Origin: a virus
Direction: 5' to 3' (one strand)
IMG/VR virus record: IMGVR_UViG_3300037116_000074
Coordinates: 8,376-72,375 of that record
DNA length: 64,000 bases
In this document: positions 31,106 to 52,462 of the stretch, piece after piece
Position numbering within the stretch: the first letter of the stretch is position 1
Layout of the letters: every line of letters starts with the position of its first letter
Made by a program: the position numbers and the translations under genes
The notes under the pieces: model-generated
Database searches by the model: none
What the model was told of the DNA's origin: nothing
The model's input: only the letters and a program-made list of their open reading frames with translations

Positions 31106-32515
31106 TTAGCAGTGTTCTATAACAACAGCGCGTTTGTATGCAGCATTGCTAGCAGTAGGTATAATCGAAGGATTGGCAGTTAAGTCTGTTGGACATACCA
31201 CACCGAATACGGATAAGTAAGTCATTTGAACTTGACGACCCATATTGTCGATAGGAGCACGTACTATGTGAGCTATGTGATCAACCATATAGATATTACT
31301 GACTGAACCAACTGCTTCACCGCGTTGAGCGAAACTTTCTAATCCAGAGAAGTGTCCTTGGTACAAACCACCCATACCGGTAATCAATACACGGTGGATA
31401 CTTGTTCCAGGAAGCAAGGCTTGCATACCAGCAGCTGCGACAGATGCTTGTAAGTAAACTTCAGTTGTAGGTATGAAGGTCATGCCTAACAAAGTAAATA
31501 CTTGGTTGTTTTGATACTCAGGGTTATTACCACGACTTGCGTACATGATTTGGAACTGAGAATCTATAAGCAATTCAGTCATTGAATGATAATCAAGGTA
31601 GCAATGATATGTACCATCACGATGACGGGGAATAGCATTTTGAGACAAACTTGCTTGAGCTGTTTGAAGCAAACTTATGCTTAACAAATCTTGCGAAGTA
31701 AGTTGGTTTGTACCTTGCTTGTTGTTTGGACGATAAACAGGAGATCCTAATGAGGATTGAAGGGCATCACCACCGACTGGTAATGTACCGGCAACTGGAT
31801 TAATAGTTAAATAACCGGATATACCATCTGATGCACTACCAACTACGGATGCTGGATATACAGAATTTGTCGGTACATCAGCTACAGCAGCTACAACATT
31901 GAATGTTTGAGTTACGCCACCATTAAATGCAACTTCTTGCACTGGAAGTGGATTATCAACAGCAACTGGAGTTGGAACACCATTGACCCAATTGACTTGG
32001 AATCCGCGAATGTCATCAACATAAATCTTAGCTGTGGTTGGATCGGTTTCACCCATTGCAGCATTACGAATCCAGGTGTTGCCTGTATTGTATGCAGCGA
32101 ACCATGTTTGTTTAAGAACACGTTCTATGGTTTGAGCAGCTTCAACACCATTAGTATGGGCTAAAGCCATTAATTGATCGGCAATACCTTCTTGTTCTTC
32201 TAACAAATCTAATTGCTTGTTACCAGCATATTGATTCACGTTATAAGTGTATTGTTCTAAACTTGGGGTTGTGGCAGTTAAACCATTATCTAAACCAGTA
32301 ACATTGACTGGATTTAATGGTGTTGGTTGCGGTGGGGTACGACCTATTTTAGTCTTAGTGATACTATTACCTGCGCGTATAGGTATCATTTCGACAACAA
32401 CATCATGAGAAAAAGCTGACTCTGAATCAAGACCTTCTTCAAACGAACGGGCTAAAAAGCCTTGTTGGAATGCTATATTAAATGCGCTTCCTGGAGGAAC
32501 TAAACCACCGGCCAT
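31106..32515 (-). CDS. major capsid protein
   Basis: 469 aa after scaffold; EQY....NQY, A...G..AAQ..E, L..N.IP...DG.YHC.LD, AYKRAVVIEH. Confidence 0.85.
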   Translation of the reverse strand: MAGGLVPPGSAFNIAFQQGFLARSFEEGLDSESAFSHDVVVEMIPIRAGNSITKTKIGRTPPQPTPLNPVNVTGLDNGLTATTPSLEQYTYNVNQYAGNKQLDLLEEQEGIADQLMALAHTNGVEAAQTIERVLKQTWFAAYNTGNTWIRNAAMGETDPTTAKIYVDDIRGFQVNWVNGVPTPVAVDNPLPVQEVAFNGGVTQTFNVVAAVADVPTNSVYPASVVGSASDGISGYLTINPVAGTLPVGGDALQSSLGSPVYRPNNKQGTNQLTSQDLLSISLLQTAQASLSQNAIPRHRDGTYHCYLDYHSMTELLIDSQFQIMYASRGNNPEYQNNQVFTLLGMTFIPTTEVYLQASVAAAGMQALLPGTSIHRVLITGMGGLYQGHFSGLESFAQRGEAVGSVSNIYMVDHIAHIVRAPIDNMGRQVQMTYLSVFGVVCPTDLTANPSIIPTASNAAYKRAVVIEHC

Positions 32516-32666
32516 AATAAATACCTCTTTAACTCCTGACGTTTATAAAACTTAATCTTGGAGTTTAAAAAGGCTTCTAGCCGAACAACGTTATCTAACG
32601 TAAAAACTCTTATGAATGTACATAGTTTAACATAATTTTTCGTTAATGTATAAATGTTTACTCATA

Positions 32667-32702
32667 AAAGAACCCAGGAAGATAATAAATACGATCCTGG
32701 GC
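32667..32702 (-). terminator. intrinsic terminator after scaffold gene
   Basis: CCCAGGA/TCCTGGG stem followed by TTCTTTT on the - strand. Confidence 0.55.
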
Positions 32703-32730
32703 ACACTTCCCCGCTACGATTTTTATTACA

Positions 32731-33432
32731 TTAAAACGTAGAGTTTTTGGTTGCTTGTCTAAATTCAGCTTCAACTTGTGACAATGGAACCTTGCGATCT
32801 AACGCATTAAAATGCGTCGGTTGTACGCCTGGTTGCGGTGCAATACCAGGTTGACCGGTTGGTCTAACGCTTGGAGCCACAACTGGCGCTACGGGAGCTG
32901 GAGTAGGTGCTTCATCTGCTTTAAACAATAATGGTTTGTCTTGTTTGAGACGCGCCACTAATTCAGCAGCCTTAGATGGATCTGCCTTAAGTTCGTCACC
33001 ATATTTAGCTTGTAATGCTGTAGACAGTAAATCCGTTTCTAAAGCTCCAGCAGCAAGCATTTCGCGCTCAAGGCTGGATTGAACCGCCTGTCTGGAGAAT
33101 TTTTCTTCCAGTTCACGAACTTTAGCTTCGGCTTTATGAGCTAATTCTTTATATTCACCTTGTTCAGTTAAGCGTTTTGTTTCGGCTTCCTGTTCTTTAT
33201 TAAGCATTTCAGTGAGTTTAGTTTCAGCTTTGCGGGCTTTTTCATCGGCTACACGATAATTTCTTTCATAATTTTGCTTATCACCCAGCGCCTTTTCGAA
33301 TAGCTCACGCAATTCTGGTTCCAGACTAGCTAAACGTGCTTCTAAATGATGTGGTTTGCCTTTAAGGGCTGCATCATCTAATGGAGGTGGACCGTTAGGG
33401 TCAGCACCTGGTTGATTTCTATCACCGCTCAT
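32731..33432 (-). CDS. capsid scaffolding protein
   Basis: coiled-coil, L..LK..KP.LF, Pro-rich linker; upstream of MCP. Confidence 0.8.
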   Translation of the reverse strand: MSGDRNQPGADPNGPPPLDDAALKGKPHHLEARLASLEPELRELFEKALGDKQNYERNYRVADEKARKAETKLTEMLNKEQEAETKRLTEQGEYKELAHKAEAKVRELEEKFSRQAVQSSLEREMLAAGALETDLLSTALQAKYGDELKADPSKAAELVARLKQDKPLLFKADEAPTPAPVAPVVAPSVRPTGQPGIAPQPGVQPTHFNALDRKVPLSQVEAEFRQATKNSTF

Positions 33433-33501
33433 ATTGTCTCCTTGAGGGCTATGCCCTAATAAATGCCATCAGGCATAAGTTGTTATGTACAGATTAAAAT
33501 T

Positions 33502-33897
33502 TTAAGGGGCTACCGCCGAAATATTAACGTTTAAATTACCACCGGTTGGATCGCCAGTTTGTACTGCCTTAATCCATCTAACACCGGGCCAAGATACGAA
33601 TGTAATACCTAAAGCTGTTATCGCTGAACCAAGTACAAAGCCAGTAGCTCCGCTTACGGATGGATTATCATCGCTTAATGAACCCCAGAACTGAACTGAA
33701 ATAATAGCAGTAGCACCGCCAGAAAGTTCAATCGCTGCACGACTAAACGCCCGAAAGTCTACCCAGTTAGAGGTATCAGCTACAACAGTATCATTAATTA
33801 AATCATAAGCAATAGACGAAGAAACAGCCAAAGCATTGACTGGATTGGGTGGATGGACGTCATAAGGTATTTGTCCATCGGATGCGTTAGTTGCCAT
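33502..33897 (-). CDS. putative virion beta-sandwich protein
   Basis: V...GS.D....F / RWIK pattern; structural operon. Confidence 0.5.
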   Translation of the reverse strand: MATNASDGQIPYDVHPPNPVNALAVSSSIAYDLINDTVVADTSNWVDFRAFSRAAIELSGGATAIISVQFWGSLSDDNPSVSGATGFVLGSAITALGITFVSWPGVRWIKAVQTGDPTGGNLNVNISAVAP

Positions 33898-33933
33898 AAA
33901 AATCTCCTGAAGGGTATTGATAGTTTAACATGG

Positions 33934-35142
33934 TTATAGAATTTGCGCTAGGGTCGCTGATCCTGCTCCACCTGCACCGCCAGTACCACCTTGAGTATTA
34001 GCTTTAACACCACCAGTACCACCATTAGCTTGCACAGTTCCAGTATTAGATAGTGTACCTTGATAAAATATCCAAACTGCGCCACCACCTGCGCCGCCGC
34101 CGCCTGATGAACCGCCTATACCATCACCACCAGTACCACCATTTCCTCCATTTCCTCCATTTGAAGATATAACTCCGCTACTTCCTATAGTAAGATTTCC
34201 ACCAACAATTAGAACAAGATAGCCACCACCTCCGCCGCCGCCTGTACTGCCAGATGTACCAGCTGAACCAGTTCCACCTGACCCACCAGGATTACCAGCA
34301 CCACCACCTGCTCCAGGGCCATTAGCACAATTAGCTCCAGCACCGCCAGTACCACCATTAGTAGATGCATTACCACCAGTTACACCATTATAAGATCCGC
34401 CACCCCCGCCAGATCCACCACAAAAAGATGTACCAGCAGTACCATTACCACCAGCTGCATTAAATCCACTACCGCCACCACCACCACCACCGGGTGCATT
34501 AGTTGACGTTCCACCAGCTGAACCAGTTGTAGCTGGAATAGCACTAGCACCAGCACCACCAGATCCACCTGTAGCCGGTGTATTGTATGTAGTAGTTGTT
34601 ACTGGCCCAACACCTGTAGTTATACCATCTGTTGCAGATGAATATTCAATAATATTGGTAGATGAACCAGAAGCATTAGCCCCTAAACCATTCATACTTA
34701 TTGTGCCATTGACTGTACAGTTTCCAGTGACGTAAATAATTAAACCTTTACATCTATTCGATACACTTAATATCTGCCCACTATTAACGGTTAACGAACT
34801 GTAATTTTGAATAATAGCCGGGCCATCAGTTATAGAAGTTAAATTTGTACTACTACTAATAGTAACTGCACCATCGGCACCCGTACCAAAATAATTACTT
34901 GCAGCGGCTGCTGGCACCCAGTTAGTGCCGTTATATACTACTATGTTCCCAACACTGGGACTGCCAGTAATTAAATTATTAATAGCCGCGGTCCCCGTAG
35001 TAGCAGCTGTACCACCGCAATTAACAGGTAAAGTACCAATCGTTGGAGACGAAGCGGTGGGATGGTAATCAGCCCCAGGAATCCCGGCGAAGCACTGAGT
35101 GCTAAATATTAAACATATTAATAGACTGATTAGTTTTTTCAT
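33934..35142 (-). CDS. glycine-rich fibre-like protein with predicted signal peptide
   Basis: MKKLISLLICLIFSTQCFA|GI; YFGTGADG, NYSSLTV, long Gly-rich tract. Confidence 0.75.
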   Translation of the reverse strand: MKKLISLLICLIFSTQCFAGIPGADYHPTASSPTIGTLPVNCGGTAATTGTAAINNLITGSPSVGNIVVYNGTNWVPAAAASNYFGTGADGAVTISSSTNLTSITDGPAIIQNYSSLTVNSGQILSVSNRCKGLIIYVTGNCTVNGTISMNGLGANASGSSTNIIEYSSATDGITTGVGPVTTTTYNTPATGGSGGAGASAIPATTGSAGGTSTNAPGGGGGGGSGFNAAGGNGTAGTSFCGGSGGGGGSYNGVTGGNASTNGGTGGAGANCANGPGAGGGAGNPGGSGGTGSAGTSGSTGGGGGGGYLVLIVGGNLTIGSSGVISSNGGNGGNGGTGGDGIGGSSGGGGAGGGAVWIFYQGTLSNTGTVQANGGTGGVKANTQGGTGGAGGAGSATLAQIL

Positions 35143-35190
35143 ATACCGTATTATATCCATATTCGATACTGTCGAACAGTAAGATTATTT

Positions 35191-36402
35191 TTAGGCTATT
35201 GTAGTCACGTTGCCAATTATTACTTGTAGTTCGGTTGTAGTCACAGCAATTCCTAAACTTTGAACCAAATCGCCGCTAGATGAAGGAGCTGTAGCTGTTA
35301 CTGCTCCAGCGGTTCCAAGGAAATAACGTGTTCCAACTGTTAAACTAGATTGTTGCGTATTAGGAGCACTACCAATTACAATTGTAATCGCTCCAGAAGC
35401 AGCACCTGTAAGAGCAAAACCATCAGCTTGTTTTGTAACATCTGTATTATCGGCATTACGAACTTTTAAGCCAGAAGAAGCCCATAAATTAATCATTGCT
35501 CCAGCTGCTATTGTTTCAGTAACAGTAACAGACATTGTTTGATAACCATTAGCTAATGGAAGAAATCCCGATACAGCACCCGAAGCACCTAAAGCAACTG
35601 CTCCAAAAGCAGGATCGGCCGAAGAACCGGCTGAAACTAAAGCTAATCCAGCAGTAGCACTAGGCGCTACCTGATCGATTGGACCAGTACCTTCACCAAT
35701 TAATACGGCATATTGAGTAAGTGAAGTGCGTCCAGTACCACCACCGGCTACGACGGCGGTAGAAAATGAAGGAGTAGACGAAGAACCTTGGCTAACTAAT
35801 GGGATACCAGTAGTTGATGTTGGGGCGGCTAGGGCAACATTGCCAGTACCATTACCTACCACGACATTACCAGCGGTAATTGTAGCTAATCCTGTACCAC
35901 CATGAGGTACACGTAACGTATTCGTAACATTAGCCACTAAATCAATGACTGGTTGAATAGTCCACCAATTAGCGCCATCGGACACGAAGAAATAGGTTTG
36001 ATCTACAATAGATAACGTAGGTAAGGAAGCAGCGGAGGCAGCATTAATGGTTTGCGAACTCACGGTTGCGAAGGCAACATGATTTGTCCCATCAGCCGTA
36101 GATACTTGTACTAATAATGTTTGACCAGAAAATGCTGTTGCATCAGGTAAGGTAGCAGTAACAGTAGCAGCAGCCGTTACGATATCAACAGATTCAAAAT
36201 GAGCAATTAAAGCAGAAAAGCTAGCAGTATCAGTTCTAGGAGTAAAACTTGATGCTATAGCAGGTAGCATCGAACTATCAATTAAACCGGAGGAATTTAA
36301 CGAAACAATCTTATTTGCATCTCCAGCGCCTGCTGAAGAGTTATTGGATGCTAAGAGTTCATCAGTTCCGGATGATAAAGTGAGATATTTATTACCAGCG
36401 AT
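35191..36402 (-). CDS. head fibre/decoration protein (probable ATC start)
   Basis: paralog of 36459..37502 with similarity extending 44 codons upstream of the first ATG; AAGGAAGGA RBS before ATC. Confidence 0.75.
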   Translation of the reverse strand: MAGNKYLTLSSGTDELLASNNSSAGAGDANKIVSLNSSGLIDSSMLPAIASSFTPRTDTASFSALIAHFESVDIVTAAATVTATLPDATAFSGQTLLVQVSTADGTNHVAFATVSSQTINAASAASLPTLSIVDQTYFFVSDGANWWTIQPVIDLVANVTNTLRVPHGGTGLATITAGNVVVGNGTGNVALAAPTSTTGIPLVSQGSSSTPSFSTAVVAGGGTGRTSLTQYAVLIGEGTGPIDQVAPSATAGLALVSAGSSADPAFGAVALGASGAVSGFLPLANGYQTMSVTVTETIAAGAMINLWASSGLKVRNADNTDVTKQADGFALTGAASGAITIVIGSAPNTQQSSLTVGTRYFLGTAGAVTATAPSSSGDLVQSLGIAVTTTELQVIIGNVTTIA

Positions 36403-36458
36403 ATTATTCCTTCCTTATTAATGTAGGTAAGAATATTATAATACGCACCAGGCGGATT

Positions 36459-37502
36459 TTAACCTAAGACTACTGGAGGTTGCAATATTACTTGTAATTC
36501 AGTGGTAGATATGGCTACACCGACTTTTTGGACTATATATCCAGTCGTTGAGGGGAGGGTAGAGGTAACTGTTCCGGCCGTACTGAGATAATAGTCAGAA
36601 CCGACTGTCAAACTAGATAGACCAGCGTTTGGACCATTACCCATTACAACTTGTCCTACAACAGTAGCTGATATAGCTAATGGAGCAAAACCTGTGGTTT
36701 TTTTAGGGGTAGAGTTGTCGGCTAATTGAATCAGACCAGAAGAATCTATATATATCATTGCATTGGCGGGAATACTAGTAGAGCCTGCGGTTGCAGTCAT
36801 CACTCCAGGTCCATTCAGGACTGGAAGAACACCAGTTACAGCAACGGATACATCTAAAGCTTGGAATGAAGGATCGGACGATGCGCCGTTAGAAACAAGG
36901 GCAAAATGTGTAGCGGAAGGGGCAACTAATGTAACTGCACTTGTACCATTACCTAAAATTACATTATGAACTGTAAGCGATGTTTGTCCTGTACCACCAT
37001 TAGCGACAGACAGATCGCCGGTAACATTATGGGCTAAATCAGTGACTGGGCTTACGGTCCACCAATTAGAACCATCTGAAATAAAGAAATATGTTTGATC
37101 GACATTAACCAGTACCGGCAATGAAGCAGGCGCAGAACCATTAACTGTCTGTGATGATACTGTTGCAAAAACTACATGATGAGAAGCGCTTACCGTAGAA
37201 ACTTGAACAATTAATGTTTCTCCTGAATAAGCTGTAGCATCAGGCAAAGTTGCGGTTACGTTGGCAGCGGCCGTAGCTAAATCTACTGATTCAAAATAAT
37301 TGATTAGAGCGGAAAAACTAGATGTATCGGTTCTAGGGGTATAGCTGGCAGCAAGTGCTGGCAATAAAGAGCTGTCGATTTTTGCTGAGCCATTAAGGGC
37401 AACGATATCACCACTGACGGCACCTGAGCTTGTAGTTTGGCCTTCATATTGTTGGAGATCGCCACTGGCGTTTAAATTTACAAACTTAGTATTACTAGCC
37501 AT
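36459..37502 (-). CDS. head fibre/decoration protein
   Basis: TPRTDT.SFSALI, SDGSNWW module, ANGGTG repeats, C-terminal LTVG..Y.L.TAG...VQ..G.A..TTEL domain. Confidence 0.75.
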   Translation of the reverse strand: MASNTKFVNLNASGDLQQYEGQTTSSGAVSGDIVALNGSAKIDSSLLPALAASYTPRTDTSSFSALINYFESVDLATAAANVTATLPDATAYSGETLIVQVSTVSASHHVVFATVSSQTVNGSAPASLPVLVNVDQTYFFISDGSNWWTVSPVTDLAHNVTGDLSVANGGTGQTSLTVHNVILGNGTSAVTLVAPSATHFALVSNGASSDPSFQALDVSVAVTGVLPVLNGPGVMTATAGSTSIPANAMIYIDSSGLIQLADNSTPKKTTGFAPLAISATVVGQVVMGNGPNAGLSSLTVGSDYYLSTAGTVTSTLPSTTGYIVQKVGVAISTTELQVILQPPVVLG

Positions 37503-37542
37503 CTGAACTCCTTACAATAAATCTAAGAATATTTTAACATGA

Positions 37543-38016
37543 TTAACCTAAAACAATACTGATTGAGCTAACTAAAATCAAACTAGTTGAACTTTGAGCA
37601 GTTCCAATATAACGCATCCAAGTAGAACCTACCGCCAAGGGTGTTGTCGATAAAACACCTAGTAAACCGACAAAATAACGACTACCAACCGTTAAGCCGG
37701 TCGTATTTAGTTGCCCCAACTGATTAACTGTTATAAGATGTCCGGTTAACCCTGCTTCGGTTGAAATACCAACGTATAATCCGGCTAATGTAACGTTCGT
37801 AGGATCGGCTGGATATAAAAGACCACCGACTAAAACGCAAGCAATACCAGCAGCTATGTTAACGCCGCATTGGGCCGTAACAGCACTGCCACTGCCTGGA
37901 GGGCCGGCTGGGCCTTGAGCACCTATAGATACGACCTGAATAGGTCCAGGAATTACTGTGACGGTTGAATCGCCCAGTAGAGAACTAATAGTAACTGTTC
38001 CTTCGACTAGGCTCAT
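37543..38016 (-). CDS. decoration protein with short collagen-like repeat
   Basis: GAQGPAGPPG; same LTVG.RYF..G.A C-terminal domain. Confidence 0.65.
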   Translation of the reverse strand: MSLVEGTVTISSLLGDSTVTVIPGPIQVVSIGAQGPAGPPGSGSAVTAQCGVNIAAGIACVLVGGLLYPADPTNVTLAGLYVGISTEAGLTGHLITVNQLGQLNTTGLTVGSRYFVGLLGVLSTTPLAVGSTWMRYIGTAQSSTSLILVSSISIVLG

Positions 38017-38411
38017 GGACTTGTTACGCCACTGAGCGCAGCTGCTGACCCTTGCAGGAATCCATCAACGGCAGGACCTCCACCTGGATATAACAACAGA
38101 TCATAATCCATGAATAATTGACCACCAACCATATACGGACCAAAAGCAGCTTCGATATCAGCTTGGGTAACATTTAAAAATATTTGCCCAGCCGTTGGAT
38201 TAAATGTAATCGCTGGACTCATTCCGGTACTGGAAAGTGTTAAATAGATAGTAACCGGCGGAATAGAGCTTCCAAACGACATTTTGGCATTGTAGCCAGT
38301 TAAATTAACCGGATTGCCAGTGGTAGAATCAGTATAAGTTAATGTGTAATTAAAGTCCGAATTGAGCTTAATTGCAAACTGTCCAGAAAAACTAAAGACT
38401 CCAGCTGCCAT
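38013..38411 (-). CDS. virion structural protein (BppU-N-like Ig fold)
   Basis: D..G.PVNLTGY.A.M ... G.I.L ... YDL ... G motif. Confidence 0.65.
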   Translation of the reverse strand: MAAGVFSFSGQFAIKLNSDFNYTLTYTDSTTGNPVNLTGYNAKMSFGSSIPPVTIYLTLSSTGMSPAITFNPTAGQIFLNVTQADIEAAFGPYMVGGQLFMDYDLLLYPGGGPAVDGFLQGSAAALSGVTSP

Positions 38412-38413
38412 CC

Positions 38414-38635
38414 TTAAACCTCAATAACAGTCCCTAACTCTTGTCCTTCTTGTACGAATTCACCCTCATGAACAAGCAGCTCTAGTTTACCATTCAATTC
38501 ATTAGTAACTTCATAAAATAGCTTCATAACTTCAATGTTGAGAATTAACTCATCTACCTTGACTATAGAGCCCGAAGGCATTAGTATTTGAGATACAATT
38601 CCTGAAACTGGTGAAAATAAGGTTTCTTTACGCAT
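38414..38635 (-). CDS. stand-alone biotinyl-acceptor (BCCP-like) domain
   Basis: SPVSG.V..I....G..V.....I..IEVMKL..EV.....G.....V.EG..V..GQ.L matches the biotin/lipoyl attachment consensus (EAMKM). Confidence 0.9.
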   Translation of the reverse strand: MRKETLFSPVSGIVSQILMPSGSIVKVDELILNIEVMKLFYEVTNELNGKLELLVHEGEFVQEGQELGTVIEV

Positions 38636-39157
38636 ATGCATCCCGATTTAATAGCTGAACAATTATACAACGCTATGCAGCAACCGCCCGATAGAAAAAC
38701 GTGGAGACGGTTTTTGCGTAAATTTAGTCTACCTGATGAAAATGCATGCTGGGAATGGAAAGCATACCTGAATCCTGCATATTATGGACAATTTAGATTG
38801 CGTAATTATAAACATGGGTTAGATTTGGCGACTAGGGTTATTATGACATGGCTATATGGACCTATCCAAGCAACATTGGTCGTTGATCATATGATGTGTA
38901 ATAATCCTCCCTGTATTAATCCACAACATCTGCATATCACTAGTCAAAGGGAAAATTTATTACGCTCTGATCAGACCTTAGCTGGGAAATGTATACGTAA
39001 AACTCATTGCCCACAAGGACATGCATATTCTTTCATGAATACCCGGATAAGTTATAAGCGGGGATGTCCAGGCCGTACATGTCGTAAGTGTGATGCAATC
39101 AAGCAGGCTCTAAAACGACAGCACATCAAGAGGGGTGACTTGTTATTACAATTATAG
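38636..39157 (+). CDS. HNH endonuclease (start may be 38675)
   Basis: CWEW, YGQF, DH.C.N..C.NP.HL, KTHCPQGH...R.CR.C. Confidence 0.9.
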   Translation: MHPDLIAEQLYNAMQQPPDRKTWRRFLRKFSLPDENACWEWKAYLNPAYYGQFRLRNYKHGLDLATRVIMTWLYGPIQATLVVDHMMCNNPPCINPQHLHITSQRENLLRSDQTLAGKCIRKTHCPQGHAYSFMNTRISYKRGCPGRTCRKCDAIKQALKRQHIKRGDLLLQL

Positions 39158-39207
39158 TCAGTGATCTAAAATCTCTAGCCGCTGATACACTGTTTACCGC
39201 TAGTGAT

Positions 39208-39696
39208 GTGAAGGTTTACAATCGCTCCAAGATTAAAATCATCCGACAACATGCAATCGCAAGTTGTGGAGATGAAACTGATGGAGTTCGCTTTGAACGA
39301 TGGTTTTTTGAACAAGGCGGAGAAAGTTTTTTGTGTGAGGGAGAATTTTCAGTCATTGTTATGACGAAGGAAAGATTCTTAATTGGTGAAACACTAGATG
39401 ACTTAAAAGAACTTCGCAAGATGTGGCAACCGGGACGGAAGTTGGGATTAGGAATGGCTAATGCCGTTGCTGCTGCTGAGATTCTAATGAAAGAAGCAAA
39501 TTATAATGCTCATAAAGCTGCTTACGCAGCAGCGGGGTATAATACACACTGCGGTATGCCAATATACTCCATTACGAAAACTCAATTACGAAATATTAGT
39601 CCAGATTTTGCCGGATGGTGGATAGGTGATTATCAAACACCAATTAATAAAATGAATAACTTTCTTATCTCTCACAAGCAATGGTTAAAAACATGA
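39208..39696 (+). CDS. hypothetical protein
   Basis: ORF coupled to the kinase gene. Confidence 0.55.
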   Translation: MKVYNRSKIKIIRQHAIASCGDETDGVRFERWFFEQGGESFLCEGEFSVIVMTKERFLIGETLDDLKELRKMWQPGRKLGLGMANAVAAAEILMKEANYNAHKAAYAAAGYNTHCGMPIYSITKTQLRNISPDFAGWWIGDYQTPINKMNNFLISHKQWLKT

Positions 39697-40238
39697 CCCC
39701 AGGGCCTTACATAACTGCCGTTATCGGCGCACGTAAGAGTGGGAAAACTACTGCTTGCGAAATTTTAAACAGCATGCATCCGGATTCGGAACGCATATCC
39801 ATGATGGGTTATGGTATTCGGGCCTTTGCCGATCTGCATGACATTCGACTGGAAGCATTCTGGCAAGAACGCACCAGGGAAGAGAATCGATCCTTATATA
39901 ATGTATTCAGTGAACATCAACGTAAGCAAAATCCACGGATTTTCTTGGATCCAATCTTGGCATTTATTAAATCTAAAACGCATGTCATTATTGATGATAT
40001 TTTTTATTACAATGAGTTACAAGCCCTTGTAGAATGCCGGGCACATATTCTATTATTAGAGGTTCCAGATGATACCAGACTCACTAGGGGCTGGACTAAG
40101 AGTATGAATCAACAACCGATGGAACAGGAAGTAGCCGCTATTAAAGGCGATACTATTAAACATTGGCGAAACGTGGAAATAATACAAAATACAATGGCTA
40201 TTAATGAATTTCGTTTTATTTTGAGTAATTGCAAATGA
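39693..40238 (+). CDS. P-loop kinase (dNMP/phosphomevalonate kinase-like)
   Basis: GARKSGKT, R...R, IIDD.FY.NE, R..RG. Confidence 0.75.
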   Translation: MTPGPYITAVIGARKSGKTTACEILNSMHPDSERISMMGYGIRAFADLHDIRLEAFWQERTREENRSLYNVFSEHQRKQNPRIFLDPILAFIKSKTHVIIDDIFYYNELQALVECRAHILLLEVPDDTRLTRGWTKSMNQQPMEQEVAAIKGDTIKHWRNVEIIQNTMAINEFRFILSNCK

Positions 40239-40441
40239 GTATAAGAATTAAAATTCTAACAGATCATGGGCAGGCACTTTACTTTGGTGACTATGCTACT
40301 GTGAGTAGTGCTATTCAAGCAATCAGTATTGTGGAAAATTTTCATACTTTTCGGGATCGTATGTTTGTAGAGCATAAATTAAGTACATTGGAACAAACGG
40401 TTACGCCTGAAGCGGAACGAATACAACTTTATCCATTATGA
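40235..40441 (+). CDS. hypothetical protein
   Basis: coupled ORF. Confidence 0.5.
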   Translation: MSIRIKILTDHGQALYFGDYATVSSAIQAISIVENFHTFRDRMFVEHKLSTLEQTVTPEAERIQLYPL

Positions 40442-40797
40442 AATTGCTCTTATTAACTAGCTGCATAATATTAGCAACATATTATGGAGGTGTTTCTGTG
40501 GGGCATGGTAAGCCGGGGCGCATTGGTATTAAGTATGATCCAGTGCGCCATCAAATAGTGCATGTGTATAGACATACGCCAGCTGCTGAAGCAGATTTAA
40601 AGCCGGGAGATATCATACTGCATGTGAATGCGGCCGATATTACTGGAGAAGCATTTACTTTTGTTAACTTGACGATTAAACGTAAGAATGTAATATTTAA
40701 TGTCGAAATAGAACGTATACCGAATGAGTGGGTTCATGAGCAACAAGAAGCCCCTGACACAGAAATCGACCCAAGAATCACGCCCAAAACAGCGTAA
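40438..40797 (+). CDS. PDZ-domain protein with signal/anchor
   Basis: GRIGI...HVY..TPA..A.LKPGDIIL.VN...V.LTI.R. Confidence 0.85.
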   Translation: MKLLLLTSCIILATYYGGVSVGHGKPGRIGIKYDPVRHQIVHVYRHTPAAEADLKPGDIILHVNAADITGEAFTFVNLTIKRKNVIFNVEIERIPNEWVHEQQEAPDTEIDPRITPKTA

Positions 40798-41164
40798 GAC
40801 TATTTATTTAGCCGGGCAAATGTCCGGTGTGAAAAATCATAACTATCCTAAATTCTTCAGAGGGCAGGCTAGGCTGGAGAAAGCTGGCTATGAAGTAATT
40901 AATCCAGCCAGATTAAACACCGTAGGTGATGCCTGGAGCGATTGTTTGCGGAATGACATTCTACATATTGTAAAATATTGTGACGGAATTGCCCTCCTGG
41001 ATGACTGGATGTTATCACGGGGTGCTAGATTAGAGTTAGCAATTGCATTAAGATTAGAAATGTTTGTAATTTCAGCGCACACGCTAAAACCAATGCATAT
41101 TACATTAGATAAATTGTTCTTACATCGCAAGAGGGGTGGATATGTCGCAAGATACAAAGGATAA
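40724..41164 (+). CDS. DUF4406-like nucleoside deoxyribosyltransferase-fold protein
   Basis: IYLAG.MSG...NY..F...G..V.NPA...W..S.GA.LE. Confidence 0.85.
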   Translation: MSGFMSNKKPLTQKSTQESRPKQRKTIYLAGQMSGVKNHNYPKFFRGQARLEKAGYEVINPARLNTVGDAWSDCLRNDILHIVKYCDGIALLDDWMLSRGARLELAIALRLEMFVISAHTLKPMHITLDKLFLHRKRGGYVARYKG

Positions 41165-41648
41165 GAAGCGTACAATACGACCACTGAATCAACGGTTGAA
41201 AGATGCAGCTAATCTACTAGCTGCGCCTAAATTATTTAGACCAATATTAGATAAGAATATATATGGTAATAATTCATTTGAAGATTTAGATGTACCAAAA
41301 GTTCATATCACTATCACTCCCGATCCGAACTATGATACCGGTGCAAAGAAAAACGATTCCGGTAAACTCCCTATTGATCTCATACCAGTACGCCCCTTAT
41401 TGGATTTAGCAGCTGTTTTACAACACGGGCAAATTAAATATGATGCCAACAACTGGCGTAATGGGTTTTTGTTTAGCCGTACCTATGCAGCAGCACAACG
41501 ACATCTCCTAGCTTGGCATAGTGGTGAGGATAACGATTCTGATTCGGGGCTTAGTCATTTAATGCATGCAGCTTGTAATTTATTTTTTCTTTCAGAATTT
41601 ATGACAACACATAAGGAATTAGATGACAGGGTAAAACAAAATGACTAA
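41142..41648 (+). CDS. dATP/dGTP diphosphohydrolase (DUF5664-like)
   Basis: K.D.GK...DL.P...VL..G..KY...NW..G...RH...W..GED.D..SGL.HL.HAAC. Confidence 0.9.
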   Translation: MSQDTKDKKRTIRPLNQRLKDAANLLAAPKLFRPILDKNIYGNNSFEDLDVPKVHITITPDPNYDTGAKKNDSGKLPIDLIPVRPLLDLAAVLQHGQIKYDANNWRNGFLFSRTYAAAQRHLLAWHSGEDNDSDSGLSHLMHAACNLFFLSEFMTTHKELDDRVKQND

Positions 41649-41829
41649 AAATGAATTGAAATTAATCAAGAAAACTACATTAGTAGCGGCAATTGAATTG
41701 GTATGCCTTCACTTTCATGGACAAGGTGCTACTGAAGCTGAGCAGGCTGATTATTGGATTCGAAAAGCAATTATAGGTAAGAAAGGAATAGAAATTAATG
41801 CCGAAGAAACACAACCAGTATCTGAATAA
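41641..41829 (+). CDS. hypothetical protein
   Basis: coupled ORF. Confidence 0.5.
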   Translation: MTKNELKLIKKTTLVAAIELVCLHFHGQGATEAEQADYWIRKAIIGKKGIEINAEETQPVSE

Positions 41830-42316
41830 ACTCCTATTACTGATAACTCTGTTCGTAATTTGCGTACCATCATACGCAGAGTGCGTAACTATCCAGCGCG
41901 TCATAGATGGCGATACTGTTGTCACCGAAGCTGGCGAACATGTACGCTTAGCGGAGATAGACGCTCCAGAGCATAATCAACGATTCGGGTATGAGTCCAC
42001 ACAATATCTTATTCATCTATTGGCAGTAACGGATAATGTTGTAGAACTAGATCGTGGCGATCACGATCGCTATGGACGAACTATTGGATTTTTGAATAGT
42101 AAGACTATAGGTTGCTTAAATTCTTTAATGGTTATGGATGGATACGCCTGGGTATATGTGAAATATGCTCACGATGCCGGTGTTTGGTATAGAGCAGAGA
42201 ATCAGGCTAAATTTAATCATCTGGGGTTATGGATCGATAGAAATCCAGTGCCACCTTGGACGTTTAGGTTAATGGAGAAGCAACACTCTCCCATGCTGTA
42301 TAGGATAAGACAATGA
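41798..42316 (+). CDS. thermonuclease (SNase) with signal peptide
   Basis: VIDGDT, VRL..IDAPE..Q.FG, DRYGR, GYAW, GLW......PW.FR. Confidence 0.93.
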   Translation: MPKKHNQYLNKLLLLITLFVICVPSYAECVTIQRVIDGDTVVTEAGEHVRLAEIDAPEHNQRFGYESTQYLIHLLAVTDNVVELDRGDHDRYGRTIGFLNSKTIGCLNSLMVMDGYAWVYVKYAHDAGVWYRAENQAKFNHLGLWIDRNPVPPWTFRLMEKQHSPMLYRIRQ

Positions 42317-42495
42317 ATAGGCTTGAAAAACAAGAACGATTATTCGCTATTACACAGCTAGCTAAAGCTATCTTCATAGAGAAAGCAAAACAAATTAGCT
42401 TTACGCAAGATGTGGATGTAAGCTTAATGGTAGCAGAATGTTTTATAGCGGCGGAGCAATTTCTAGATGGGCAAGAGGCTTATGCTAAAAAATAA
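42313..42495 (+). CDS. hypothetical protein
   Basis: coupled ORF. Confidence 0.5.
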   Translation: MNRLEKQERLFAITQLAKAIFIEKAKQISFTQDVDVSLMVAECFIAAEQFLDGQEAYAKK

Positions 42496-42931
42496 TAAAT
42501 TATTAGTTCTTTTATTCCTAGTAACTTTTATGTTACCAGCGACTGCCAGGCCGGCTATGCAAATATTCTATGGTGCCAAGGTGATGCATATCTGTAATGC
42601 CAATACCATTATTGTGAATGATTTATACACGCATGAATTAGAGACAGTAATTATAGCCGGTACAATAGCACCGACTAATTTTAATCAGGATGATAATGGG
42701 AAGCGATACCTTACTACTATGATACTGGGGCAAGAAGTAGATGTCTTGTCGTATGGGCACGACAAGTATGGTCGTGTTGTCGCAGATTTGAAAGATCATC
42801 GAAATTTATGGATATCATACGATTTGATTGCAGGTGGGTTCGTATATTGGAATAGAAGTCTAGGGTATGACTATACAGCAGAGCACTGTGAGAACTTTGC
42901 TAGGAAGCATCATAGTGGGGTGTGGAGGTAG
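42482..42931 (+). CDS. degenerate thermonuclease paralog with signal peptide
   Basis: DKYGR and AR....GVW kept; DGDT is NANT, VRL/DAPE are VII/IAPT. Confidence 0.8.
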   Translation: MLKNNKLLVLLFLVTFMLPATARPAMQIFYGAKVMHICNANTIIVNDLYTHELETVIIAGTIAPTNFNQDDNGKRYLTTMILGQEVDVLSYGHDKYGRVVADLKDHRNLWISYDLIAGGFVYWNRSLGYDYTAEHCENFARKHHSGVWR

Positions 42932-43449
42932 ATATGCGTAATATCAATACATGCACATCCACAAATAATATCGCCAGAGCTGCTATTGATGATGGAAGAA
43001 CGATAGATCTCATTGTAGCTCAGAAGCAAACGCATGCTTATGGTCGTAATCAGGATACTAAGTGGTATTCACCAGCAGGTGCTGGTATCTATATGTCAAT
43101 CATAGTGCGGGAACCTAAGGGATACTTAGTTACGGAAGACTGGTTTATCACAGAACGTATCGGGCATGCGCTGAAATGGAGTTTACGGACATTAACGCGA
43201 TTGAATATCGAACAACGCGGAGTGAATGATCTATTTGTAGATAATCGTAAAGTCGGTGGGGTACTATGTGAGATACATAAGGGATATCTAATTATAGGAA
43301 TTGGTATTAATTTGTTCAGACCGAAGCGTGTTCCAGCGCCATATAACAAAACGGCTATCTGGTTGGATGAATTATTGCGGGCTGATGCAATCAGTGTGAA
43401 ATATTACATAGATTCAATATTAAATGAAGTCGTGAGGCTGGTAGTATAA
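42922..43449 (+). CDS. birA: minimal biotin-protein ligase (BirA/BPL catalytic domain), divergent motifs
   Basis: STN, A..QT...GR....W.SP, G.YMS, ND....RK.GG.LCE, IGIGIN; no HTH and no C-terminal domain. Confidence 0.88.
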   Translation: MEVDMRNINTCTSTNNIARAAIDDGRTIDLIVAQKQTHAYGRNQDTKWYSPAGAGIYMSIIVREPKGYLVTEDWFITERIGHALKWSLRTLTRLNIEQRGVNDLFVDNRKVGGVLCEIHKGYLIIGIGINLFRPKRVPAPYNKTAIWLDELLRADAISVKYYIDSILNEVVRLVV

Positions 43450-43450
43450 G

Positions 43451-43705
43451 ATGCCGTACATCGAAAAACTAATGCGCAATGCAATTTTGCATCACACACT
43501 AGATGAGCTATGTGATGAAACGTGGACGGATGGAGAAATCAATTATATGATTTCTATTTTACTGAAACGACAATTTTTTAATAACAAATGCTATGCAACT
43601 GCTAACAAATTAATTGGAGCAGTGGAATGTGCTAAACAAGAGTTTATTCGGCGATACTTGAATGCAATGGAGGATGAAAAGATAATCCAGAATGGCGACA
43701 TCTAA
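43451..43705 (+). CDS. conserved phage protein (DUF6899-like)
   Basis: MPYI...G..NY...G..ECAK.E..RR....ED.K...NGD. Confidence 0.75.
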   Translation: MPYIEKLMRNAILHHTLDELCDETWTDGEINYMISILLKRQFFNNKCYATANKLIGAVECAKQEFIRRYLNAMEDEKIIQNGDI

Positions 43706-43780
43706 TTGCTTATATTGTCAACTTTGTAAGAATTGTCATTTTGAAGAATATGATTTTAATCGTAGGAGGGATATCTAATC

Positions 43781-43939
43781 ATGGAAAATTGTACAAAATT
43801 TGCTGTTTGCTGGAATGATTATAGTAAAGTAGATCCTAATCAACGCGAATACTTCGAAACTATTGAAGATGCTATAGAATTTATAGCCAATGCTCCGGAA
43901 GATCTCCAGAAGTTCATGGTTATTAGGGAGTGCTATTAA
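43781..43939 (+). CDS. small hypothetical protein (52 aa, not in ORF track)
   Basis: AGGAGG RBS; MENCTKFAVCW...IRECY*. Confidence 0.6.
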   Translation: MENCTKFAVCWNDYSKVDPNQREYFETIEDAIEFIANAPEDLQKFMVIRECY

Positions 43940-52100: not shown

Positions 52101-52462
52101 CACTGTATAATATGTCATCGCTATTTTACCGGCGGCAAAGTCAATTTATGTATTAGTTGTCTAGAGTCGGAATATTTACGTTTAAAGGGGCTGGCTAATG
52201 AAGACTGATCCCTATATGGATGAATTAGCTAACGATATTCAAAAGCTTGCGCAGTTAATAGCTAAATATGAAAACATACCCTTTGCTGATCATAGATATA
52301 GCTATCTAGTAGATCATAAGCGGGAATTAATTGGCTTTAAGGTGGATATTAGTAGTGCATTAGAATATTTAATTAGGACTATAGAATCATGAAACCAGAA
52401 ATATGGCTCCTTTACATTTCATTCTATTTAAGCGCTATAATAATGCGACTACATGGTTACCT

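What the first reader, a model, noticed from the sequence alone, without database searches (positions are those of the whole stretch)
38414..43449. Phage-encoded biotinylation pair: minimal BirA-like ligase plus a stand-alone biotinyl acceptor heading the virion operon
Seen: a ~73-aa biotin/lipoyl-attachment domain with EVMKL (consensus EAMKM) is the first gene of the leftward structural operon, with only 2 nt between its stop and the next structural gene. A catalytic-domain-only BPL lies 4.3 kb away. No carboxylase is in the window. Known: BPL attaches biotin to the MK lysine of such domains. Inference: a writer-substrate pair that (a) makes a biotin-tagged virion part, perhaps to engage biotin uptake proteins, (b) acts as a biotin sink starving host acetyl-CoA carboxylase, or (c) supplies or decoys BCCP. 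I am not aware of this being characterised in phages.
Basis: partly seen in the sequence, partly recalled or inferred. Interest (0 to 1): 0.9.

Follow-up and report, generated by a model that had tools for sequence, protein, structure and literature searches.

The report
Phage biotin ligase plus orphan acceptor
An uncultured 72-kb tailed phage from peat carries its own stripped-down biotin-attaching enzyme and a tiny protein built to receive biotin, but none of the enzymes that normally use biotin, so it may use this vitamin tag for something not yet described.

Summary
ORF 38414-38635(-) is a 73-aa BCCP-type biotinyl domain (PF00364, 46 bits). Its E-x-M-K-L site is invariant in 9 of 9 clade members. 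ORF 42922-43449(+) is a BirA-type ligase made of the catalytic domain only: TIGR00121 E 4.5e-20, AF2 pLDDT 92, and Foldseek hits that are all biotin protein ligases. It keeps the catalytic Lys, has a rewired biotin-binding loop and has no BPL_C.

The window is part of a complete 72,375-bp contractile-tailed phage genome with no carboxylase, avidin or BioY.

Two related metagenome fragments keep the acceptor at the head of the late gene block. In one of them it directly precedes a head-module gene.

Ligase relatives are very rare. I found 4 clusters in 5.8 billion proteins, and none in IMG/VR, PHROGs or BFVD.

Neither the transfer of biotin from ligase to acceptor nor any downstream role could be tested. 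The complex prediction gave no verdict.

Earlier notes of this scan report ligase-less BCCP-like mini-proteins in the head modules of other phages. This phage adds the ligase. I rate it a new variant of a known kind and a cheap, testable lead.

The parts
38414..38635 (-). Acceptor gene: a 73-aa stand-alone biotinyl (BCCP-type) domain. An alternative upstream ATG at 38641 would give 75 aa.
   Evidence: PF00364 at 46.1 bits. The clade profile's best solved match is the 1.3S transcarboxylase biotinyl domain 1dcz, E 5.1e-10, with MK aligned to EAMKM. Relatives are 73-74 aa and start at this ATG.
38522..38524 (-). Codon of Lys38, the predicted biotinylation site in E-V-M-K-L.
   Evidence: Read from the sequence. 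E35, M37, K38 and L39 are invariant in 9 of 9 clade members.
42922..43449 (+). Ligase gene: a BirA-type biotin protein ligase with the catalytic domain only. It is 175 aa from the GTG at 42922 or 171 aa from the ATG at 42934.
   Evidence: PF03099 and TIGR00121. The AF2 model has pLDDT 92.1. The top Foldseek PDB hits are all biotin protein ligases, TMq 0.62-0.81, mostly 0.75 or more. In natural variants, 14 of 20 listed differences are synonymous.
43027..43065 (+). Biotin-binding loop, residues 36-48, QTHAYGRNQDTKW. It is a rewired version of the canonical QTxGRGRxGRxW and carries a one-residue insertion.
   Evidence: HMMER alignment to A. aeolicus BPL 2eay and the loop table of 45 ligases.
43249..43251 (+). 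Codon of Lys110, the conserved catalytic lysine in N-R-K-V-G-G.
   Evidence: Invariant column K110 in the 45-row alignment A5.
38013..38411 (-). 132-aa gene starting 2 nt after the acceptor's stop. Function unknown.
   Evidence: phrog_1084, unknown function, E 2e-9.
33934..38016 (-). Four further genes (157, 347, 359 and 408 aa), at least two of them fibre-like. Together with the 132-aa gene they separate the acceptor from the head module in this phage.
   Evidence: phrog_4368, phrog_12121, and phrog_31660 tail fiber (weak). They are absent between the acceptor and the 131-aa homologue in L003.
33502..33897 (-). 131-aa head-module gene. Its homologue directly follows the acceptor in L003, with a 4-nt overlap.
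   Evidence: tblastn of the L003 129-aa protein against the genome gave 50% identity, E 1.4e-33. It is also present upstream of the scaffold-like and MCP genes in L005.
31106..33432 (-). Scaffold-like gene (32731-33432) and major capsid protein gene (31106-32515).
   Evidence: Phage_scaffold E 3.9e-5, below the cut-off. phrog_1357 major head protein, E 3.2e-15.
38636..39157 (+). HNH endonuclease gene inserted between the acceptor and the divergent early operon.
Evidence: phrog_826, E 2.4e-32.
39208..42931 (+).
   Evidence: Synteny with L003 and L004 runs as far as the diphosphohydrolase.
43451..43705 (+). DUF6899 gene starting 1 nt after the ligase's stop.
   Evidence: PF21840, E 5e-19. One laid X4 contig skips 43477-43770.

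Best explanation
The phage encodes a self-contained biotinylation pair.

The writer. The early-operon gene makes a 171-175-aa BirA-type ligase reduced to its catalytic domain. It should form biotinoyl-5'-AMP from biotin and ATP.

The substrate. The ligase should pass the biotin to Lys38 in the E-V-M-K-L hairpin of a 73-aa single-domain acceptor. The acceptor is the first gene of the late (fibre, head, tail) block. It is translationally coupled to whatever gene follows it.

The product. The phage has no carboxylase. Acceptor-type mini-proteins appear to be commoner in phages than the ligase is. I therefore infer that the biotin-carrying form of the mini-protein is what matters. This lineage would have added its own ligase to secure that modification independently of the host BirA.

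The role. The role I favour is non-catalytic. The holo-protein would be made with the particle proteins and would act as a low-copy biotin-tagged head or virion-assembly component.

Shown: the gene identities, the conserved residues, the gene order and the absence of carboxylases. Inferred: ligase activity, the choice of substrate and the role of the product.
For: Identity of the writer.
- TIGR00121 scores E 4.5e-20, and all 11 NCBIfam hits are biotin ligases.
- The AF2 model has pLDDT 92.1.
- The Foldseek PDB list is made of biotin protein ligases only, TMq 0.62-0.81, mostly 0.75 or more.
- All 10 invariant columns of a 45-ligase alignment are kept, including the catalytic K110, the S-T-N motif and G-x-G-x-N.
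- 14 of the 20 listed natural differences inside the ORF are synonymous.

Identity of the substrate.
- PF00364 scores 46 bits.
- The clade profile matches biotinyl domains (1dcz 5e-10, MCC, PCC) better than lipoyl domains (1ghj 1.2e-5).
- E35, M37, K38 and L39 are invariant in 9 of 9 members.
- The lysine has 37 residues before it and 35 after it.

Feasibility of a ligase without the C-terminal domain.
- The engineered A. aeolicus BPL fragment 2-171 (microID) is active (PMC9253107, passages read).
- The Atlas lists bacterial BPL-only clusters of 162-175 aa.

Orphan status.
- PF02786, PF01039, PF00682, avidin and BioY gave no hit in the complete genome.
- Pfam found nothing else related to biotin in 50 window proteins.

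Placement.
- The acceptor heads the late block here and in L003 and L004.
- In L003 it directly precedes, with a 4-nt overlap, the homologue of the 131-aa gene that sits before the scaffold-like and capsid genes.

Leads, not tests.
- The nearest Atlas cluster of the acceptor has 146 members of 73 aa, 79% viral.
- Earlier scan notes report ligase-less BCCP-like mini-proteins in head modules of other phages.

Presence elsewhere.
- Both genes are present, letter for letter, in contigs of a second peat sample of another study (run X2).
Against: - There is no direct evidence that the ligase acts on the acceptor, or that either protein is made.
- The two genes lie in different, divergently oriented operons 4.3 kb apart. 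They are not adjacent.
- Co-occurrence across relatives is unknown.
- The biotin-binding loop departs from the canonical one (A-Y-G-R-N-Q-D-T-K-W, with an insertion). The arginine equivalent to E. coli R118 / A. aeolicus R40 is R in only 2 of the 4 ligase clusters; it is H in one and Q in one. Tight retention of biotinoyl-AMP, and therefore specificity, is uncertain.
- TIGR00121 is below its equivalog cut-off.
- Removing the C-terminal domain from E. coli-derived BioID nearly abolishes activity (PMC9253107 discussion).
- The gene that follows the acceptor differs between the window and L003. No fixed structural partner is therefore indicated.
- No proteomic or structural evidence places the acceptor in a particle. 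A high-copy biotinylated virion protein would be hard to supply with biotin (my inference).
Confidence: 0.45

Rival explanations
1. The pair manipulates the host's biotin economy.

The two genes act on the host rather than on the particle. The ligase has no DNA-binding domain. It would compete for biotin and biotinylate host carboxylase subunits or the phage acceptor.

The acceptor would be made in bulk late in infection. It could soak up biotin and biotinoyl-AMP. It could derepress a BirA-controlled bio operon. It could also compete with host BCCP for biotin carboxylase. Any of these would rewire or shut down fatty-acid synthesis.
For: - There is no phage carboxylase.
- The ligase sits among early metabolic genes: a dNMP-kinase-like protein, DUF4406, a dATP/dGTP diphosphohydrolase and nucleases.
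- The ligase lacks an HTH domain: it is 175 aa, all of it mapped on the catalytic domain.
- Recalled, not from a call: in E. coli, excess apo-acceptor domain derepresses the bio operon through BirA.
- An earlier scan note describes a phage BCCP copy that lacks the lysine and was read as a decoy (unchecked).
Against: - A decoy or sink does not obviously need the lysine to be charged by a phage-borne ligase. The invariant MK and the acquisition of a ligase suggest that the holo form is what counts.
- The acceptor lacks the N-terminal part of AccB-type BCCP (it is 73 aa in total). That part, from recall, mediates binding to biotin carboxylase.
- Its conserved place is at the head of the late, structural block, not among the metabolic genes.
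- Holo-carboxylases already present would be unaffected late in infection (inference).
Confidence: 0.28
2. The ligase is a natural abortive, proximity-type ligase.

It has no C-terminal domain and an altered biotin-binding loop. It would therefore release biotinoyl-AMP, which acylates lysines of nearby host or phage proteins without sequence specificity. The acceptor would serve as a preferred target, a buffer or a scavenger.
For: - The architecture equals that of the engineered microID/ultraID, A. aeolicus BPL 2-171 (PMC9253107, passages).
- In that fragment, L41P alone, next to an intact R40, makes the enzyme abortive (same passages).
- In the alignment to A. aeolicus BPL, the window's N43 takes the place of L41 and is followed by a one-residue insertion. 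The G-R before G-R is A-Y.
- The R40/R118-equivalent is H or Q in 2 of the 4 clade clusters.
Against: - The window protein itself keeps the R40/R118-equivalent arginine (R42).
- Bacterial short ligases of 190-210 aa also show T, N or Q at that place. They may be ordinary housekeeping enzymes.
- Nothing here measures retention of the intermediate.
- Promiscuous biotinylation would waste a scarce cofactor (inference).
Confidence: 0.08
3. There is no biotin chemistry at one or both genes.

The small protein would be an unmodified barrel-sandwich module serving as an assembly factor or chaperone. Alternatively, or in addition, the ligase would be a decayed or repurposed binding protein. The pairing in one genome would then be coincidental.
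For: - The barrel-sandwich fold is also used without a cofactor: weak HlyD, RND-adaptor and PTS-EIIA hits appear for the acceptor.
- The AF2 model of the acceptor was poor, pLDDT 43.
- The ligase loop is non-canonical and the equivalog cut-off is missed.
- Earlier notes of this scan describe BPL-like proteins that lost their catalytic residues (unchecked).
Against: - M37-K38-L39 is invariant in 9 of 9 members at 49-68% overall identity.
- The ligase keeps every invariant residue of the family, including the catalytic lysine.
- The ligase ORF shows mostly synonymous natural variation, 14 of 20.
- Both belong to the same two-component chemistry and are each very rare in phage collections, which makes a chance pairing unlikely.
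Confidence: 0.12

Closest known systems
Class I (monofunctional) biotin protein ligases, e.g. Aquifex aeolicus BPL (2eay/3efs) and Pyrococcus horikoshii BPL with its BCCP complex (1wnl, 2ejg)
   Same: - They share the catalytic-domain fold (Foldseek TMq 0.75-0.78) and are the best sequence matches among solved structures (2eay E 1.3e-10).
- They share the S-T-N motif, the catalytic Lys and the G-x-G-x-N motif.
- Neither has an N-terminal HTH domain.
   Different: - The phage protein ends where the catalytic domain ends. The 61-76 further residues, including BPL_C, that 26 of the 27 longer ligases of the alignment carry (the 27th has 38) are missing.
- The G-R-G-R-x-G-R loop reads A-Y-G-R-N-Q-D-T with an insertion, and K-W-x-N-D reads R-G-V-N-D.
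- It is encoded by a phage that has no carboxylase.
microID / ultraID, the engineered C-terminally truncated A. aeolicus ligase (Kubitz et al. 2022, PMC9253107; passages read)
   Same: - It has the same architecture and size: the catalytic domain alone, about 170 aa and under 20 kDa.
- It shows that such a core can still activate biotin.
   Different: - It is an engineered tool. It carries R40G and/or L41P to make it promiscuous.
- The phage protein is natural, keeps the arginine (R42) and has a different loop.
- Whether the phage protein is specific or abortive is unknown.
Stand-alone or excised biotinyl domains: the 1.3S subunit of transcarboxylase (1dcz), P. horikoshii BCCP domain (2d5d), B. 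subtilis biotin/lipoyl attachment protein (1z6h), and small NCBIfam families PRK07051, PRK05889 and PRK08225
   Same: - Each is a single domain of about 70-80 aa with the M-K lysine in mid-sequence.
- Profile matches are 5.1e-10 (1dcz), 1.4e-6 (2d5d) and 8.9e-4 (1z6h), and NCBIfam PRK07051 at 8e-8.
   Different: - The cellular ones serve a carboxylase, decarboxylase or transcarboxylase encoded in the same genome, often in the same operon (established knowledge).
- Here there is none.
- All NCBIfam scores are far below the equivalog cut-offs, so the acceptor is not a member of any of those named families.
BCCP-like mini-proteins in head modules of other uncultured phages
   Same: - They are 73-74-aa biotinyl domains with an intact MK site.
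- They sit in or at the head-morphogenesis genes, with no carboxylase.
- The Atlas also lists a 146-member, 79% viral cluster of 73-aa proteins as the nearest to this acceptor.
   Different: - Those notes report no phage ligase; this genome has one.
- I did not see their sequences. The word-based sequence look-up found no look-alike outside this genome, so kinship is untested.

Membership tests
BirA-type biotin protein ligase (PF03099 / TIGR00121) | Match to the family profiles above their curated cut-offs | tested here: inconclusive
   PF03099 scores 33.7 bits against a cut-off of 21, so it is met. TIGR00121 scores 72.2 bits against 83.1, so it is not met: only profile positions 6-134 of 235 are covered.
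BirA-type biotin protein ligase (PF03099 / TIGR00121) | Catalytic-domain fold of biotin ligases rather than LplA/LipB | tested here: met
   The AF2 model has pLDDT 92.1. All listed Foldseek PDB hits are biotin protein ligases, TMq up to 0.81. LplA-B_cat scores only 13.7 bits against a cut-off of 27.
BirA-type biotin protein ligase (PF03099 / TIGR00121) | Catalytic lysine (E. coli K183 by recall) and the S-T-N, W/F-S-P and G-x-G-x-N ligand-binding motifs | tested here: met
   T14, Q36, G41, N102, D103, K110, G113, G126, G128 and N130 are invariant across 45 ligases and present here.
BirA-type biotin protein ligase (PF03099 / TIGR00121) | Canonical G-R-G-R-x-G-R biotin-binding loop | tested here: not met
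   The loop reads A-Y-G-R-N-Q-D-T-K-W. Only the central G-R is kept and one residue is inserted. It varies within the clade.
BirA-type biotin protein ligase (PF03099 / TIGR00121) | C-terminal SH3-like domain (PF02237) | tested here: not met
   There are 0 residues beyond the catalytic domain. PF02237 gave 0 hits in six frames of the genome.
BirA-type biotin protein ligase (PF03099 / TIGR00121) | ATP-dependent biotinylation of an acceptor lysine | not testable with these tools
   This needs an enzyme assay.
Biotinyl (BCCP-type) domain, PF00364 | Profile match above the cut-off, closer to biotinyl than to lipoyl domains | tested here: met
   46.1 bits against a cut-off of 22.1. The PDB profile search gives biotinyl domains at 5e-10 to 1e-6 and the best full lipoyl-domain match (1ghj) at 1.2e-5.
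Biotinyl (BCCP-type) domain, PF00364 | Met-Lys at the hairpin position, conserved | tested here: met
   The motif is E-V-M-K-L. E35, M37, K38 and L39 are invariant in 9 of 9. It aligns to EAMKM of 1dcz.
Biotinyl (BCCP-type) domain, PF00364 | Flattened beta-barrel (barrel-sandwich hybrid) fold | tested here: inconclusive
   The AF2 model built on a 6-row alignment was poor, pLDDT 43.2. The fold is inferred from homology only.
Biotinyl (BCCP-type) domain, PF00364 | Serves a biotin-dependent carboxylase, decarboxylase or transcarboxylase | tested here: not met
   No PF02786, PF01039 or PF00682 is present in the complete phage genome. Use of a host enzyme cannot be excluded.
Biotinyl (BCCP-type) domain, PF00364 | Carries covalently bound biotin | not testable with these tools
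   This needs mass spectrometry or a streptavidin blot.
Lipoate-protein ligase / lipoyl domain pair (LplA, LipB; considered and set aside) | LplA/LipB catalytic profile and a D-K-A type lipoyl lysine | tested here: not met
   PF21948 is below its cut-off. There is no lipoate ligase among the 11 NCBIfam hits. The motif is M-K, not D-K.

The most novel reading that the evidence does not exclude
Biotin is used here as a non-catalytic protein tag. The phage-borne ligase charges an orphan 73-aa carrier that becomes part of the head or virion, or of its assembly machinery. This would be the first natural biotinylated protein with no carboxylase role, written by a virus-encoded enzyme. A bolder sub-variant is also not excluded: the domain-stripped ligase with its rewired loop may be a natural proximity-type (abortive) biotinylator.
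Probability: 0.2. Interest if true: 0.85.

Novelty: new variant of a known kind. Interest (0 to 1): 0.62.

Why it matters
As far as is known, protein biotinylation is among the most restricted modifications in biology: one ligase and a handful of carboxylase subunits per cell.

A virus that carries both the writer and a dedicated acceptor, but no enzyme to use the cofactor, points to one of two things. It may be a new structural or tagging use of biotin. Or it may be a targeted attack on the host's biotin and fatty-acid economy.

Either can be tested with two small synthetic genes and a streptavidin blot.

The ligase is also a natural counterpart of the engineered minimal proximity-labelling enzymes (microID/ultraID), so it could be of practical interest.

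If the acceptor is exposed on particles, streptavidin capture could enrich such phages from environmental samples.

Tried and rejected
Co-occurrence in relatives.
The 32-71-kb contigs behind the ligase relatives (P0002, P0330, P0331) and the 50-kb contigs behind the acceptor relatives (P0065, P0067) could not be read.
- Seven IMG/VR scans were run: the ligase, the acceptor, A1, the MCP, P0330, A7 (the neighbouring 162-aa protein) and A9. They gave only L005, an 8.7-kb head fragment that does not reach either gene position.
- Two GTDB genome scans gave nothing.
- The single JGI metagenome scan gave two short fragments, L003 and L004, which end before the ligase position.

Complex prediction. 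The job with ligase plus acceptor gave 'no answer' (scores 0.29 and 0.20 against a mark of 0.32; controls not run). It is evidence neither way.

Acceptor fold.

Sequencing runs.
- No RNA holder was listed.
- Parts of the stretch had no cover in X3-X5, among them the acceptor in X4. These are holes in contig data, not absences.

Frameshift fusion of the acceptor to the next gene.
- In the window, the next gene's frame is open for only 9 nt upstream of its ATG, and there is no X-XXY-YYZ heptamer.
- L003 has one such heptamer, but using it would delete the last ~20 residues of the domain.
- I rejected the idea.

GenBank phage records.
- 17 records match the ligase at 25-32% identity.
- The one annotated record that I opened is bacterial chromosomal DNA, with smc, coaX and ffh.
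- Two are labelled Salmonella.
- The three unverified faecal scaffolds that I opened carry full-length ligases with BPL_C and no PF00364.
- I did not open the other 11.
- The 4 acceptor matches are weak (E 3e-3 to 5e-3), in Listeria-labelled fragments.

Burkholderia phage PhiE067. The 'biotin carboxyl carrier protein' mentioned in its paper (PMC7266877, passages) is a 439-aa ORF with no Pfam family. I treat it as a misannotation, not as a precedent.

Other negatives.
- PADLOC gave no defence-family hit for either gene.
- Blastn of 36001-44000 against the phage collection gave no match.

Literature.
- Searches found only biotechnological uses of BirA or AviTag with phages. Searches concerned ligase truncation.
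- PMC12911398 was opened and found irrelevant.
- All other papers were seen as search listings only.
- Supplementary files were not consulted.

Host. The host was not identified. The holders are peat and permafrost metagenomes, and no tRNA was found in the window.

Full report
**What is there**

The window is bases 8376-72375 of a 72,375-bp IMG/VR virus record. The record has direct terminal repeats and an estimated completeness of 100%.

It is a contractile-tailed phage. It carries a major head protein (31106-32515, -) and a tail sheath (21094-23043, -). It also carries a tape measure (17288-19423, -), a baseplate wedge (4733-5887, +) and fibre-type proteins. The portal-like and lysis genes lie in the 8.4 kb before the window.

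Near-identical DNA is held by peat and permafrost metagenome runs.

**The acceptor**

- ORF 38414-38641(-) gives 75 aa from the first ATG. The five relatives found by the protein search, and the database copy, all begin at the second Met, so the gene is most likely 38414-38635, 73 aa.
- Pfam Biotin_lipoyl scores 46.1 bits against a cut-off of 22.1 and covers profile positions 15-71 of 73.
- A profile of the clade, searched against all PDB sequences, ranks biotinyl domains first. These are the 1.3S transcarboxylase subunit 1dcz (E 5.1e-10), methylcrotonyl-CoA and propionyl-CoA carboxylases, and the P. horikoshii BCCP domain. The phage M-K is aligned on E-A-M-K-M. The best full-length lipoyl-domain match (1ghj) is weaker, at 1.2e-5.
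- Nine clade members are now known: the window, P0063-P0068, and the metagenome fragments L003 and L004. They are 49-68% identical to the window protein. E35, M37, K38 and L39 are invariant in 9 of 9.
- An exhaustive HMMER pass over 1.84 billion cluster representatives found only two representatives of this clade, P0067 at 137 bits and P0068 at 94 bits, both 73 aa. There is no closely related fused form. The next hits are multi-domain proteins carrying two or more biotinyl or lipoyl repeats.
- dS between the window and the two fragments is saturated, and dN is 0.31-0.54.

**The ligase**

- ORF 42922-43449(+) gives 175 aa from a GTG. The database copy has 171 aa, which fits the ATG at 42934.
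- PF03099 scores 33.7 bits against a cut-off of 21.
- All 11 NCBIfam hits are biotin ligases. The best is TIGR00121 at E 4.5e-20, below its equivalog cut-off because only the first 134 of 235 profile positions are matched.
- An AlphaFold2 model built on a 45-row alignment has mean pLDDT 92.1.
- Foldseek against the PDB returns biotin protein ligases only, from S. aureus, A. aeolicus, P. horikoshii, M. tuberculosis, M. jannaschii, E. coli and H. pylori. TMq reaches 0.81, and 170-180 aligned columns cover the whole 175-aa protein.
- The protein ends where the catalytic domain ends. Twenty-six of the 27 longer ligases in the alignment carry 61-76 more residues, and the 27th carries 38. PF02237 (BPL_C) is found nowhere in the genome.
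- All ten columns that are invariant across the 45 ligases are kept, including the catalytic Lys110 in N-R-K-V-G-G.
- The biotin-binding loop is rewired:
  - Aligned to A. aeolicus BPL, Q-T-K-G-R-G-R-L-G-R-K-W becomes Q-T-H-A-Y-G-R-N-Q-D-T-K-W.
  - R42 therefore sits on R40 (= E. coli R118, per PMC9253107).
  - N43 sits on L41, and one residue is inserted after it.
  - Within the four-cluster phage clade, that arginine is R, R, H and Q.
- Natural variants in a permafrost run differ from the window at 20 listed places inside the ORF. Of these, 14 are synonymous and 14 fall on third codon positions. A further 65 differences in the laid stretch were not shown by the tool.

**Nothing for biotin to work in**

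- Six-frame searches of the complete genome found one PF00364 and one PF03099.
- They found no biotin carboxylase ATP-grasp domain (PF02786), no carboxyltransferase (PF01039), no HMGL-like domain (PF00682), no avidin and no BioY. The control genomes gave hits for all of these families except avidin.
- Pfam scans of 50 window proteins and PHROG scans of 30 showed nothing else related to biotin.

**Context and synteny**

- The acceptor is the first gene of the leftward block, which runs from 38635 down to about 14683. Two bases after its stop, a 132-aa gene of unknown function begins behind a GAGG.
- To its right the early operon diverges. In order it encodes:
  - an HNH endonuclease;
  - a dNMP-kinase-like protein and a PDZ protein;
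  - DUF4406 and a dATP/dGTP diphosphohydrolase;
  - two SNase-like nucleases;
  - the ligase, and then DUF6899, one base after the ligase's stop.
- The metagenome fragments L003 (1.8 kb) and L004 (2.8 kb) come from related phages. Their early genes are 34-71% identical to the window's.
- Both fragments keep the acceptor in the same divergent position and lack the HNH gene.
- In L003, the gene that overlaps the acceptor's stop by 4 nt is not the 132-aa gene. It is the homologue (50% identity, E 1.4e-33) of window gene 33502-33897. That gene sits immediately before the scaffold-like gene and the capsid gene, and L005 has the same order.
- So in that relative the acceptor heads the head-morphogenesis genes directly. 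In the window, five genes (33934-38411), at least two of them fibre-like, lie in between.
- The constant feature is thus the promoter-proximal place in the late block, not a fixed neighbour.

**Rarity**

- A word-indexed search of 5.8 billion proteins found three ligase relatives above 45% identity: P0002 at 63%, P0003 at 57% and P0217 at 48%. All are 170-186 aa and none has BPL_C.
- The P0002 cluster includes members seen on contigs of 69 and 71 kb, the size of this genome.
- The next ligases down, at 30-38% identity, are 190-210-aa forms that also lack BPL_C and share the R-G-V-N-D-like motif.
- The Atlas lists bacterial BPL-only clusters of 162-175 aa, commonest in Caldisericota, Mycoplasmatota and Campylobacterota. 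A minimal ligase is therefore not unique to this phage.
- Among viruses I found no counterpart:
  - no PHROG family;
  - no IMG/VR relative in three ligase-based scans;
  - in the viral structure library, a best TMq of 0.52, with the named hits being lipoate ligases;
  - among GenBank 'phage' records, only matches at 32% identity or less, and those I opened are bacterial DNA or full-length BirA-type genes without an acceptor.
- The acceptor type may be commoner in phages. Its nearest Atlas cluster has 146 members of 73 aa, 79% viral (a lead, not an alignment). Three earlier notes of this scan describe ligase-less BCCP-like mini-proteins in head modules of other uncultured phages (unchecked by me).

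**How it most likely works**

Established knowledge (recalled) is that BirA-type ligases make biotinoyl-5'-AMP and transfer biotin to the M-K lysine of exactly this kind of domain.

Both halves are present and look intact. Each is rare in viruses, and they occur together in one genome that has no carboxylase. The simplest reading is a writer-substrate pair.

The engineered A. aeolicus fragment 2-171 (microID) shows that a catalytic core without the C-terminal domain can be active. The same paper notes that the equivalent truncation of the E. coli-derived enzyme is nearly dead (PMC9253107, passages).

The lineage has gone to the length of carrying a ligase, so I infer that the biotinylated form of the mini-protein is the functional one. 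From its conserved place at the head of the late, head-proximal block, I favour a role with the particle or with its assembly.

This last step is the weakest. The rivals are listed with their tests: manipulation of the host's biotin economy, an abortive ligase, and no biotin chemistry at all.

**What could not be done**

The reachable collections hold only short fragments.
- The complex prediction returned no verdict.
- The acceptor fold prediction failed on a shallow alignment.
- No expression data were available.
- The only independent sighting of both genes together is a set of identical contigs in a second peat sample of another study (run X2). That shows the same phage, not an independent lineage.

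**Literature**

- Searches for phage-encoded biotin ligases, for biotin carboxyl carrier proteins in phage genomes, for viral auxiliary birA genes and for naturally biotinylated virions returned only engineered uses.
- The one genome paper that names a phage 'BCCP' is the Burkholderia phage PhiE067 paper (PMC7266877, passages). It refers to a 439-aa ORF with no Pfam family.
- I therefore know of no description in print. The library is limited to open-access papers, and supplements were closed.

**Verdict**

This is a new variant of a known two-component chemistry in an unexpected carrier. The decisive experiments are cheap.

Noticed in passing
window 38636-39157 (+): An HNH endonuclease gene (phrog_826, E 2.4e-32) sits head-to-head against the acceptor's start codon. 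It is absent at this junction in L003 and L004, so it looks like a recent homing-endonuclease insertion. Two more HNH genes lie at 29137-29628 and 52403-52927.
   Followed up: partly
window 33934-38411 (-) versus L003:1083-1687: The five genes between the acceptor and the 131-aa head gene, at least two of them fibre-like, are missing in L003. There the acceptor is directly coupled to the 131-aa homologue. A fibre cassette has been gained or lost inside the late operon.
   Followed up: partly
window 41798-42316 and 42467-42931 (+): Two SNase-family nucleases lie directly upstream of the ligase. Both begin with hydrophobic, signal-peptide-like N-termini. The first also matches a PADLOC candidate-defence model (SNc+LTD, E 7.8e-10).
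   Followed up: no
window 39681-41648 (+): A nucleotide-metabolism cluster comprises a dNMP-kinase-like protein, DUF4406 (nucleoside 2-deoxyribosyltransferase-like in PHROGs) and a dATP/dGTP diphosphohydrolase (PF18909, E 5.7e-32). It hints at a modified or selectively depleted nucleotide pool.
   Followed up: no
window 43477-43770: One laid contig of run X4 skips 292 bases here. That removes most of the DUF6899 gene that follows the ligase, so a natural deletion variant may exist.
   Followed up: no
L006 (KT803877) 32984-34303 (-): The gene annotated 'acetyl-CoA carboxylase biotin carboxyl carrier protein' in Burkholderia phage PhiE067 has no Pfam family at E<=0.01. Several other product names in that record sit on genes inside its virion-gene block (cobalamin biosynthesis protein, riboflavin kinase) and look like misannotations as well.
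   Followed up: partly
proteins P0218-P0221, P0260, P0265, P0242: This is a group of 190-230-aa ligase-like proteins without BPL_C. They carry G-[RK]-G-[TNQ] in place of G-R-G-R and K-P/Q-G-V-N-D in place of K-W-x-N-D. They are the nearest non-clade relatives of the phage ligase, and their biology is unknown to me.
   Followed up: no
search_dna_similar 'phages' collection, H1 (CAKLQH020000007.1): A 134-kb record filed as 'Acinetobacter phage MD-2021a' carries smc, birA, coaX and ffh around the match. At least that part is bacterial chromosomal DNA.
   Followed up: yes
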